DNA from: Escherichia coli
GTDB lineage: Bacteria; Pseudomonadota; Gammaproteobacteria; Enterobacterales; Enterobacteriaceae
Direction: 5' to 3' (one strand)
Length of the DNA: 64,000 bases
Assembly: GCF_003334305.1 (NCBI RefSeq)
Contig: NZ_QOWS01000003.1
Program-made: the position numbers and the translations under genes
Notes under the pieces: generated by a model
What the model saw: only the letters and a program-made list of their open reading frames with translations
What the model was told of the DNA's origin: nothing
Databases searched by the model: none
In this document: in pieces, positions 24,645 to 25,910 of the stretch
Layout of the letters: every line of letters begins with the position of its first letter
Position numbering within the stretch: position 1 is the stretch's first letter

Positions 24645-24862
24645 GTCTGTTTCCTTTAAAAATATGTGGCAAACAAGTGCCGAGTATTATAGCCAACTCG
24701 CGCCGAATGTCTTTGCTTGTTTTCGTCTTCATTTTCCTTTTTCGCCAGTTTTAAGACGGTATACAGAGCAGGAAAATCCATAACCGTAGCCGCATTTTTC
24801 ATAGTGAGATGAAAGCGATTACAAACTTGTGATTAACGTTTTATTTACTTTTTTGAAGTGTG

Positions 24863-24883
24863 ATGTAACGCAATCCGTTACAT
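24863..24883. promoter_or_regulatory. inverted repeat ATGTAACG-N5-CGTTACAT about 70 bp upstream of ytfQ; candidate operator
   Basis: Perfect 8-bp arms with 5-bp spacer in the ytfQRT-yjfF promoter region. Confidence 0.35.
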
Positions 24884-24953
24884 AACGAATTGTCTATAGT
24901 TTTTTCGCGAACATCTTTTCACCAATAATAATTACCCCGACGAGGACAACCCT

Positions 24954-25910
24954 ATGTGGAAACGCTTACTTGTAGTCTCTGCAGTCTCGGCAGCCATGTC
25001 GTCTATGGCGTTGGCCGCTCCATTAACCGTAGGATTTTCGCAGGTCGGATCGGAATCCGGCTGGCGCGCTGCAGAAACCAATGTAGCGAAAAGTGAGGCC
25101 GAAAAACGCGGAATTACGTTGAAAATTGCTGATGGTCAGCAAAAGCAGGAAAACCAGATTAAAGCGGTACGTTCCTTCGTTGCACAAGGGGTGGATGCGA
25201 TCTTTATCGCTCCGGTGGTCGCGACAGGTTGGGAACCGGTATTAAAAGAGGCGAAAGATGCCGAAATCCCGGTCTTCTTGCTCGACCGTTCCATCGATGT
25301 GAAAGACAAATCTCTCTATATGACCACCGTTACTGCCGACAACATCCTCGAAGGTAAGTTGATCGGTGACTGGCTGGTAAAAGAAGTGAATGGCAAACCA
25401 TGCAACGTGGTGGAGCTGCAGGGCACCGTTGGGGCCAGCGTCGCCATTGACCGTAAGAAAGGCTTTGCCGAAGCCATTAAGAATGCGCCAAATATCAAAA
25501 TCATCCGCTCGCAGTCAGGTGACTTCACCCGCAGTAAAGGCAAAGAAGTTATGGAGAGCTTTATCAAAGCGGAAAACAACGGCAAAAACATCTGCATGGT
25601 TTACGCCCATAACGATGACATGGTGATTGGCGCAATTCAGGCAATTAAAGAAGCGGGCCTGAAACCGGGCAAAGATATCCTCACGGGTTCCATTGACGGT
25701 GTACCCGATATCTACAAAGCGATGATTGATGGCGAAGCGAACGCCAGTGTTGAACTGACGCCGAATATGGCAGGTCCCGCCTTCGACGCGCTGGAGAAAT
25801 ACAAAAAAGACGGCACCATGCCTGAAAAGCTGACGCTGACCAAATCCACCCTTTATCTGCCTGATACCGCAAAAGAAGAGTTAGAGAAGAAGAAAAATAT
25901 GGGGTATTGA
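24954..25910 (+). CDS. ytfQ: galactofuranose ABC transporter periplasmic binding protein
   Basis: 318-aa protein with signal peptide recognised as YtfQ; followed by ytfR, ytfT and yjfF. Confidence 0.9.
   Translation: MWKRLLVVSAVSAAMSSMALAAPLTVGFSQVGSESGWRAAETNVAKSEAEKRGITLKIADGQQKQENQIKAVRSFVAQGVDAIFIAPVVATGWEPVLKEAKDAEIPVFLLDRSIDVKDKSLYMTTVTADNILEGKLIGDWLVKEVNGKPCNVVELQGTVGASVAIDRKKGFAEAIKNAPNIKIIRSQSGDFTRSKGKEVMESFIKAENNGKNICMVYAHNDDMVIGAIQAIKEAGLKPGKDILTGSIDGVPDIYKAMIDGEANASVELTPNMAGPAFDALEKYKKDGTMPEKLTLTKSTLYLPDTAKEELEKKKNMGY

What the first reader, a model, noticed from the sequence alone, without database searches (positions are those of the whole stretch)
24863..24883. Perfect inverted repeat upstream of the ytfQRT-yjfF transporter operon
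ATGTAACG-caatc-CGTTACAT lies about 70 bp upstream of ytfQ. The 5-bp spacer does not fit the contiguous 16-bp LacI/GalR-type operators, so a different regulator class may bind here. No regulator gene is adjacent.
Basis: seen in the sequence. Interest (0 to 1): 0.3.

Follow-up and report, generated by a model that had tools for sequence, protein, structure and literature searches.

The report
Conserved orphan palindrome in ytfQ promoter
A 21-base palindrome in front of the E. coli galactofuranose/arabinofuranose transporter genes is real and unchanged across many related genera; it sits on top of the promoter's likely CRP activator site, and no known regulator of this operon explains it, so it is most likely the docking site of a regulator that has not yet been identified.

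Summary
The inverted repeat ATGTAACG-caatc-CGTTACAT is present at window 24863-24883, in the E. coli ppa-ytfQ intergenic region. A perfect 8-base repeat is not rare by chance (about 12 expected per window, 45 observed). Its conservation is what matters. In 21 aligned promoters, and in Klebsiella, Cronobacter and Siccibacter, the arms ATGTAAC and GTTACAT are essentially invariant while the 7 bases between them drift. The conserved unit is therefore 7-7-7, not 8-5-8; K-12 itself has only 7-base arms.

The repeat lies between two canonical GalR/GalS operators: O1 at 24809-24824 (15.3 bits) and O2 over the start codon (18.8 bits). It is downstream of AraC-like direct repeats. It overlaps a conserved TGTGA-N6-nCAnn CRP-like site whose centre is 28.5 bp from an invariant TATAGT. 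The repeat itself scores only 7.2 bits as a GalR operator and lacks the central CG.

There is no covariation, no Rfam match and no terminator. No second copy turned up in about 1 Mb, and the held literature does not contain the sequence.

Best reading: an operator for an unidentified dimeric regulator that occludes CRP and the -35 region. The binder is not identified. This is an orphan regulatory site of moderate interest.

The parts
24863..24883 (.). The inverted repeat. Conserved arms are ATGTAAC (24863-24869) and GTTACAT (24877-24883); the 7-nt spacer (24870-24876) is variable except CA at 24871-24872.
   Evidence: Arms invariant in 20 of 21 aligned promoters. Also in Klebsiella, Cronobacter and Siccibacter. 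No covariation.
24856..24877 (+). CRP-like 22-mer AAGTGTGATGTAACGCAATCCG. TGTGA is at 24859-24863 and the weak right half GCAAT at 24870-24874; centre 24866.5. It overlaps the left arm and spacer of the repeat.
   Evidence: TGTGA and the C and A of the right half are invariant, an asymmetric pattern the palindrome does not explain. They are kept in Pluralibacter gergoviae, which has lost both arms. ytfQR expression falls in a cya mutant. Assignment to CRP is an inference from the consensus TGTGA-N6-TCACA.
24890..24900 (+). Near-invariant block TTGTCTATAGT (CTATAGT invariant) containing the probable -10 hexamer TATAGT (24895-24900). The implied transcription start is about 24907-24909.
   Evidence: (columns 41-51). 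It lies 28.5 bp from the CRP-like centre, against 29.5 bp in the mglB promoter and in canonical class II promoters. No start-site data could be obtained, so this is an inference.
24809..24824 (.). Canonical GalR/GalS operator O1, ATGAAAGCGATTACAA.
   Evidence: 15.3 bits with the GalR matrix. Conserved as xTGxAAxCGxTTACAx in all aligned genera, at a fixed 40.5 bp from the AraC-like TCCATA. One base different from the chiP site listed in PMC5110547. Not listed in that paper's main text.
24956..24971 (.). Canonical GalR/GalS operator O2, GTGGAAACGCTTACTT, overlapping the ytfQ start codon.
   Evidence: GalR ChIP-chip and qPCR site for ppa/ytfQ in PMC5110547. 18.8 bits. Conserved.
24766..24803 (+). 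AraC-like direct repeats with a 21-bp period: GAGC-N7-TCCATA (24766-24782) and TAGC-N7-TTCATA (24787-24803).
   Evidence: TCCATA is invariant and AGC...ATA is conserved. The operon is AraC-regulated and arabinose-induced. An AraC profile hits the ytfQ upstream region in Pectobacterium. The site call rests on the known half-site consensus and is an inference.
24954..25910 (+). ytfQ (gafA), the periplasmic galactofuranose/arabinofuranose-binding protein and first gene of ytfQRT-yjfF.

Best explanation
The palindrome is a protein-binding operator for a dimeric, sequence-specific DNA-binding protein that has not been identified. It is not CRP, AraC, or GalR/GalS bound in their canonical modes.

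The ytfQ promoter appears to be a class II-type CRP-dependent promoter. It has a CRP-like site centred at 24866.5, no -35 hexamer, and an invariant -10 TATAGT at 24895-24900. The palindrome, centred at 24873, would then span about -45 to -25. It covers the promoter-proximal half of the CRP site and the -35 region.

A protein bound there would exclude or neutralise CRP and RNA polymerase, acting as a repressor or anti-activator. This would add a further input to an operon already controlled by GalR/GalS (operators O1 and O2 flanking the promoter), AraC and cAMP-CRP.

Shown: the repeat, its sequence-level conservation, its separability from the TGTGA site, and its misfit to GalR operators. Inferred: the promoter geometry, the CRP assignment, protein binding, and the sign of regulation.
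For: - Both arms are invariant at the sequence level in 20 of 21 promoters from more than 8 genera, while the spacer and the 6 bases after the repeat vary freely. The same holds in Klebsiella, Cronobacter and Siccibacter.
- No compensatory changes occur. The inner pair decays to G-T or to mismatches. This is the pattern of base-specific recognition rather than of a structure.
- Pluralibacter gergoviae keeps TGTGA-N6-GCATT and CTATAG at the same spacing but has lost both arms together. The repeat is therefore a module separable from the core promoter.
- Position: the repeat overlaps a conserved CRP-like site 28.5 bp from an invariant TATAGT. The consensus scan finds no sigma-70 -35/-10 pair on this strand, which fits an activator-dependent promoter. 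ytfQR is cAMP-dependent.
- It is not a canonical GalR operator, at 7.2 bits against at least 14.4.
- It is not a terminator and matches no Rfam family.
Against: - No binder was identified.
- No second copy was found. None with up to 1 mismatch occurs in 868 kb of window plus orthologous loci. None occurs in a further 150 kb of MG1655 sugar-regulon DNA. All enterobacterial hits of a metagenome scan were ytfQ promoters.
- The two TGTAA/TTACA pentamers are 14 bp apart centre to centre, which is awkward for a rigid helix-turn-helix dimer.
- A genome labelled Hafnia alvei keeps TGTGATGTAAC at the same distance from CTATAG but has no right arm. The left arm may therefore be conserved for another reason.
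- The transcription start is not known, so 'overlaps -35' is inferred.
- Each arm equals a GalR/GalS half-site, so a non-canonical GalR/GalS mode is not excluded.
Confidence: 0.45

Rival explanations
1. It is a non-canonical auxiliary site for GalR and/or GalS. Each arm is a consensus GalR/GalS half-site. The pair would be contacted weakly or in a flexible, CytR-like manner, stabilised by repressor bound at O1 and O2. This would help close a repression loop around the promoter.
For: ATGTAAC is exactly the strong half of the conserved mgl operator, gATGTAACCGcTTTCAA. It recurs next to TGAAAC in the mgl leader. The repeat lies between two strong canonical operators, at 15.3 and 18.8 bits. The ppa/ytfQ region gave one of the highest GalR ChIP-chip ratios, 22.
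Against: The central CG present in all 18 GalR sites used for the matrix is missing and not conserved. The half-sites are 5 bp further apart than in any listed operator, which puts them on different faces of the helix. The best sub-site scores 7.2 bits, and roughly 30-150 such 15-mers occur in the window by chance. The O1-O2 distance varies (131-147 or 230-245 bp) without helical phasing. No flexible binding mode is known for GalR/GalS (own knowledge).
Confidence: 0.2
2. It is an RNA hairpin in a long 5' leader made from an upstream, AraC-dependent promoter near 24805-24840. It would affect mRNA stability or be read by an RNA-binding factor.
For: The AraC-like repeats end at 24803 and travel with O1 as a fixed module, 100-200 bp upstream of the TATAGT block. 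This suggests a separate upstream start whose transcript would contain the repeat. The 31-nt stretch folds at -9.2 kcal/mol, z = -2.4.
Against: No pair shows a compensatory change. Six of 8 pairs never vary. The inner pair is broken in 4 sequences, and one arm substitution is uncompensated. The 129-nt leader folds no better than shuffles, z = 0.25. There is no Rfam hit at gathering score. No convincing -10 sits at the right distance from the AraC-like site (reading).
Confidence: 0.1
3. It is part of the CRP/RNA polymerase promoter architecture rather than a separate operator. TGTAA and TTACA would be degenerate CRP pentamers, giving alternative CRP registers or contacts that tune activation.
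For: TGTGATGTAAC is conserved as an 11-mer even in a genome that lacks the right arm. TGTAA occurs as a CRP half-site in some known sites (own knowledge).
Against: No register pairs TGTAA or TTACA with a partner at the obligatory 6-bp spacing; the pentamers are 9 bp apart (reading). CRP makes no base-specific contacts that would hold six spacer bases invariant (own knowledge). GTTACA is 12 bp from TATAGT, too close to be a -35 element. P. gergoviae keeps the CRP-like site without the arms.
Confidence: 0.1
4. It has no function of its own: a chance palindrome kept by linkage to neighbouring functional bases.
For: Perfect 8-nt repeats are common by chance, about 12 per 64 kb.
Against: Fourteen arm positions are invariant across genera whose flanking non-functional positions are saturated with change.
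Confidence: 0.04

Closest known systems
GalR/GalS operators of the gal regulon (LacI family; 16-bp dyad GTGnAAnC.GnTTnCAC)
   Same: Each arm (A)TGTAAC is a consensus half-site, identical to the strong half of the mgl operator. The repeat is in a GalR/GalS-controlled promoter and lies between two canonical operators.
   Different: There are 7 bp rather than 2 bp between TGTAAC and GTTACA. There is no central CG. It scores 7.2 bits against at least 14.4.
CytR anti-activation at CRP-dependent promoters (deoP2, cdd, udp)
   Same: The repressor has no adjacent gene, acts at a cAMP-CRP promoter, and tolerates variable half-site spacing and orientation. The arms resemble the CytR octamer GTTGCATT at 6 of 8 positions (own knowledge of the octamer).
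   Different: The discriminating base is T (TGTAA), not C (TGCAA), and it is invariant. Only one CRP-like site is conserved, not the tandem pair that CytR bridges. The repeat overlaps the CRP site instead of lying between two sites.
Class II CRP-dependent promoters with flanking GalR operators (galP1 with OE/OI; mglB)
   Same: A CRP-like site is centred about -40.5/-41.5, there is no -35 hexamer, and GalR operators lie upstream and downstream of the start (about -91 and +56 here, against -60.5 and +53.5 in gal).
   Different: Those promoters have no additional conserved palindrome over the promoter-proximal half of the CRP site.
TyrR boxes (TGTAAA-N6-TTTACA) and GacA/UvrY boxes (TGTAAG-N6-CTTACA)
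   Same: TGTAA...TTACA palindromes of similar length.
   Different: Both have 8 bp between TGTAA and TTACA, where this has 9. Their regulons are unrelated, and UvrY sites lie far upstream of csrB/csrC (own knowledge).

Membership tests
GalR/GalS (LacI-family) operator | 16-bp dyad with contiguous half-sites and a central CG | tested here: not met
   the half-sites are separated by 7 bp, and the positions equivalent to the central CG are C-C, C-T, T-T or A-C and vary between genera.
GalR/GalS (LacI-family) operator | Score within the range of ChIP-defined GalR sites | tested here: not met
   best 15-mer 7.2 bits against a training range of 14.4-22.1. O1 and O2 in the same region score 15.3 and 18.8 bits.
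GalR/GalS (LacI-family) operator | Half-site sequence xTGTAAx | tested here: met
   both arms are ATGTAAC, the same as the strong half of the mgl operator.
GalR/GalS (LacI-family) operator | Occupancy by GalR or GalS in vivo or in vitro at these bases | not testable with these tools
   The ChIP-chip peak in PMC5110547 covers the whole region at probe resolution and was assigned to O2.
CRP site | TGTGA-N6-TCACA dyad | tested here: not met
   For the palindrome itself, TGTAA and TTACA are 9 bp apart. The overlapping frame 24856-24877 matches 7 of 10 core bases, and its matching bases are invariant; that frame is a separate element.
Structured RNA element or riboswitch | Covariation, or a match to a curated family | tested here: not met
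   0 pairs with changes on both sides; only a 22-bit OrzO-P match on the opposite strand, against a gathering score of 60.
Intrinsic terminator | G+C-rich stem followed by a T run | tested here: not met
   none found. The stem is A+T-rich and is followed by AACGAATT.
TyrR box / GacA-UvrY box | TGTAA-N8-TTACA spacing | tested here: not met
   the spacing is N9 and is invariant across genera.
LysR-type recognition site | T-N11-A within an interrupted dyad | tested here: not met
   Reading: the dyad gives A-N11-T (A24867...T24879), not T-N11-A.

The most novel reading that the evidence does not exclude
The palindrome is the operator of an E. coli transcription factor not yet linked to this operon: either an uncharacterised regulator or a previously unknown flexible binding mode of GalR/GalS. 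It was acquired only in the core Enterobacteriaceae. There, about 23 bp carrying it lie between the CRP TGTGA and the ATTGTC block that are contiguous in Erwinia and Pantoea. It would veto cAMP-CRP activation of furanose uptake and add a fourth signal to a promoter already integrating galactose, arabinose and cAMP.
Probability: 0.4. Interest if true: 0.5.

Novelty: new member of a known kind. Interest (0 to 1): 0.36.

Why it matters
ytfQRT-yjfF (gafABCD) is the only known furanose-specific sugar importer of E. coli. Its promoter already integrates GalR/GalS, AraC and cAMP-CRP.

A fourth cis-element conserved across Escherichia, Citrobacter, Enterobacter, Klebsiella, Cronobacter and relatives, placed over the activator site, implies an unrecognised input. 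That could be a further sugar or a hierarchy signal, in one of the best-annotated genomes.

It is a concrete, cheap target for a pulldown or a look-up in ChIP/DAP-seq data, and could assign a function to one of the remaining uncharacterised E. coli regulators. The likely outcome is one more operator-repressor pair, not a new principle.

Tried and rejected
Looking for other copies (none found):
- Window, up to 3 mismatches: only this copy.
- 868 kb of window plus orthologous loci, up to 1 mismatch: only ytfQ promoters.
- 150 kb of MG1655 around mgl/galS/fru, als/phn and galR/araE: only 2-mismatch hits at the chance rate. I stopped the piecemeal genome scan because the yield was low.
- Metagenome scan for ATGTAAC-N7-GTTACAT: 120 hits, almost all random non-enterobacterial DNA. 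All enterobacterial hits were ytfQ promoters.

A lead that failed: five high-G+C metagenome contigs carry aacATGTAACGTATTACGTTACATgtt with the same 8-5-8 geometry. In the one contig where the flanking genes could be named (L149) it lies between two convergent glycosyltransferase genes, so it looks like a terminator-type hairpin, not an operator with a nearby regulator.

Literature:
- No held paper contains the sequence.
- Searches of ytfQ with GalR, AraC, CRP, SELEX, ChIP-exo and regulon gave only GalR/GalS, AraC, cAMP, CsrA and NrdR-overexpression effects.
- The NrdR box ACACwATATATwGTGT does not fit.
- Stringer 2014 and Horler 2009 are not held.

Transcription start data: the Cappable-seq supplement is cut before this coordinate; Conway 2014 has no held supplement; Kim 2012 has no entry.

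Motifs compared from memory and rejected on spacing or sequence: CRP, FNR, TyrR, GacA/UvrY, HexR, GlpR, GntR/IdnR, PurR, Cra, KdgR/IclR, ArcA (12-bp, not 11-bp, period), CpxR, RstA, NarL, LexA, LysR-type T-N11-A, MerR-type spacer operators, Tus/Ter, EcoKI.

GTTACA as a -35 hexamer: only 12 bp from TATAGT. A promoter on the opposite strand: not conserved.

Adjacent regulator in other genera: none; ppa is always the upstream neighbour.

Full report
**Observation.** The window is E. coli chromosome. The 801 bases around the finding match all 5426 complete E. coli genomes and are annotated ppa / ytfQ. The sequence ATGTAACG-CAATC-CGTTACAT occupies 24863-24883, and its right end is 71 bp upstream of the ytfQ ATG at 24954. 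It is the only copy in the window at up to 3 mismatches. It extends imperfectly to 11-nt arms. Perfect 8-nt-arm repeats with 0-10 nt spacers are common: 45 in the window against about 12 in Markov-1 random sequence. The repeat alone is therefore not significant.

**Conservation.** I fetched 80 YtfQ loci from species-representative genomes.
- The repeat lies 87-92 bp upstream of the ATG in Escherichia coli and E. albertii, three Citrobacter, two Pseudocitrobacter, several Enterobacter, Superficieibacter, Phytobacter, Mangrovibacter, Pluralibacter sp. and several MAGs. In strain RIT691 it is at -201 because of an insertion near the ribosome-binding site.
- It is also present in Klebsiella pneumoniae, Cronobacter malonaticus and Siccibacter colletis.
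- It is absent from Pluralibacter gergoviae, Pantoea, Erwinia, Tatumella, Serratia, Rahnella, Pectobacterium, Brenneria, Yersinia, Budvicia, Aeromonas and Vibrio.
- In a 21-sequence alignment the run TGTGATGTAAC, the dinucleotide CA two bases later, and GTTACAT are invariant, with one substitution in one Enterobacter cloacae arm. The other spacer bases and the six bases after the repeat vary freely.
The conserved geometry is therefore 7-7-7.
- MG1655 has the G-T form. The perfect form is the majority E. coli allele: 4614 of 5426 genomes are identical over 24852-24902.

**Context from phylogenetic footprinting.** Reading toward ytfQ, the conserved blocks are as follows.
- (i) Direct repeats GAGC-N7-TCCATA (24766-24782) and TAGC-N7-TTCATA (24787-24803). 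These fit the AraC half-site consensus as I know it. The operon is AraC-regulated and arabinose-induced, and an AraC profile hits the same promoter in Pectobacterium.
- (ii) A canonical GalR/GalS operator, ATGAAAGCGATTACAA (24809-24824), always 40.5 bp from the TCCATA.
- (iii) In many genera, about 100 bp of variable DNA.
- (iv) TTAAC-N6-TTCAC followed by a T tract.
- (v) GAAnTGTGATGTAAC-n-CA-nnnn-GTTACAT.
- (vi) A near-invariant TTGTCTATAGT block (24890-24900).
- (vii) The Shine-Dalgarno GAGGA.
- (viii) A second GalR operator, GTGGAAACGCTTACTT (24956-24971), over the start codon. This is the site reported by ChIP-chip and qPCR.

With a matrix built from 18 published GalR sites, the two operators score 15.3 and 18.8 bits. 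The best 15-mer inside the palindrome scores 7.2 bits.

**Promoter geometry (inferred).**
- The consensus scan finds no sigma-70 -35/-10 pair on the ytfQ strand.
- TATAGT at 24895-24900 is the only strong, invariant -10 candidate.
- TGTGA (24859-24863) with the conserved C and A at 24871-24872 gives a CRP-like frame, 24856-24877, centred at 24866.5.
- That centre is 28.5 bp from the -10. The figure is 29.5 bp in the mglB promoter read from MG1655 and in canonical class II promoters.
- ytfQ and ytfR fall in a cya mutant.
- On this reading the palindrome spans about -45 to -25, O1 lies near -91 and O2 near +56. The gal-like arrangement of flanking operators then encloses a CRP-dependent promoter.
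- I could not obtain start-site data.

**Separability.** Pluralibacter gergoviae keeps TGTGA-N6-GCATT and CTATAG at the same spacing but has CCTCGC and GTTCAT where the arms should be. Erwinia and Pantoea have TGTGA joined directly to GCATTGTC. The Escherichia clade has 23 further bases, TGTAACGCAATCCGTTACATAAC, between the homologous TGTGA and GAATTGTC. The palindrome therefore behaves as a clade-specific module placed inside the promoter. One caution: a genome labelled Hafnia alvei has TGTGATGTAAC at the same 35-bp distance from CTATAG but no right arm.

**DNA site or RNA structure.** As RNA the repeat folds at -9.2 kcal/mol (z = -2.4), but the whole putative leader folds no better than shuffles. 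No pair shows a compensatory change, and 6 of 8 pairs never vary. There is no Rfam match at gathering score and no terminator. Sequence-level invariance of both arms, with a free spacer, is the signature of base-specific recognition by a symmetric protein.

**Who binds.** I could not identify the protein.
- No regulator gene is adjacent in E. coli or in any other genus; ppa is always the neighbour.
- No second copy was found in about 1 Mb of available enterobacterial DNA.
- No second copy was found among the enterobacterial hits of a metagenome scan.
- No held paper contains the sequence.
- The arms equal the GalR/GalS half-site. The same heptamer ATGTAAC is the strong half of the conserved mgl operator, and it recurs 4-5 bases after TGAAAC/TGTAAC in the mgl leader of four of five genera.
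- The missing central CG and the extra 5 bp exclude the canonical LacI-family mode.
- Known motifs with TGTAA...TTACA (TyrR, GacA/UvrY, HexR) differ in spacing. This comparison rests on my own knowledge.

**Verdict.** The best-supported explanation is an operator for an unidentified dimeric regulator that overlaps the CRP site and the -35 region and acts negatively (confidence 0.45). The rivals are:
- a non-canonical GalR/GalS auxiliary site (0.2);
- an RNA hairpin in an AraC-driven leader (0.1);
- part of the CRP/polymerase architecture (0.1);
- chance (0.04).

It is an orphan cis-regulatory element of a known kind in a well-studied promoter. It is moderately interesting and directly testable.

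Noticed in passing
window 24809-24824: A strong canonical GalR/GalS operator (ATGAAAGCGATTACAA, 15.3 bits) is conserved in every genus aligned. The main text of the GalR ChIP paper lists only the operator over the start codon, not this one. With that operator it brackets the promoter, about 147 bp apart in E. coli.
   Followed up: partly
window 24766-24803: AraC-like direct repeats always sit 40.5 bp from operator O1 but 100-200 bp upstream of the probable -10. It is unclear how AraC activates from there: a separate upstream promoter, or relief of GalR looping.
   Followed up: partly
window 24825-24833 equivalent; L005, L009-L012, L014, L015, L017, L019, L053: Many genera carry about 100 extra, partly conserved bases between O1 and the TTAAC block, for example TTTTCGCGCGnCAGATCTCAAC. 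The O1-O2 distance is 131-147 bp in some genera and 230-245 bp in others, without helical phasing.
   Followed up: partly
window 24834-24858: A conserved TTAAC-N6-TT(C/T)AC followed by a T tract lies just upstream of the CRP-like site. It resembles the CreB 'cre tag' TTCAC-N6-TTCAC (from memory) or an UP-like element.
   Followed up: no
L202 15349-15627 (MG1655 galS-mglB spacer); L205, L206, L208: The mglB leader carries a direct pair TGTAAC-N5-TGTAAC in E. coli (cTGAAAC-N4-ATGTAACgG in other genera). It is conserved in 4 of 5 genera and lies downstream of the CRP site and the -10. It uses the same heptamer as the ytfQ arms. Its function is unknown.
   Followed up: partly
L082 6533, L149 7432, L151 11034, L152 5509, L188 1962: High-G+C metagenome contigs share an A+T-rich 27-bp palindrome, aacATGTAACGTATTACGTTACATgtt, with the same 8-5-8 geometry. 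In L149 it lies between convergent glycosyltransferase genes.
   Followed up: partly
L013 (Enterobacteriaceae RIT691), between the CTATAG block and the ribosome-binding site: An insertion of about 110 bp separates the promoter block from the Shine-Dalgarno sequence, moving the palindrome to -201 from the ATG.
   Followed up: no
whole window: Perfect 8-nt-arm inverted repeats (spacer 0-10) are nearly four times more frequent than in Markov-1 random sequence: 45 against 12.
   Followed up: no
window 24686-24713, minus strand: The only consensus sigma-70 promoter in the intergenic region (AAGACA-16-TATAAT, 10 of 12 matches) points toward ppa.
   Followed up: no
L212 (labelled Hafnia alvei): This ytfQ locus is not next to ppa. 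Its GalR operator lies upstream of the AraC-like TCCATA, the reverse of the order in E. coli. It keeps TGTGATGTAAC but not the right arm.
   Followed up: partly
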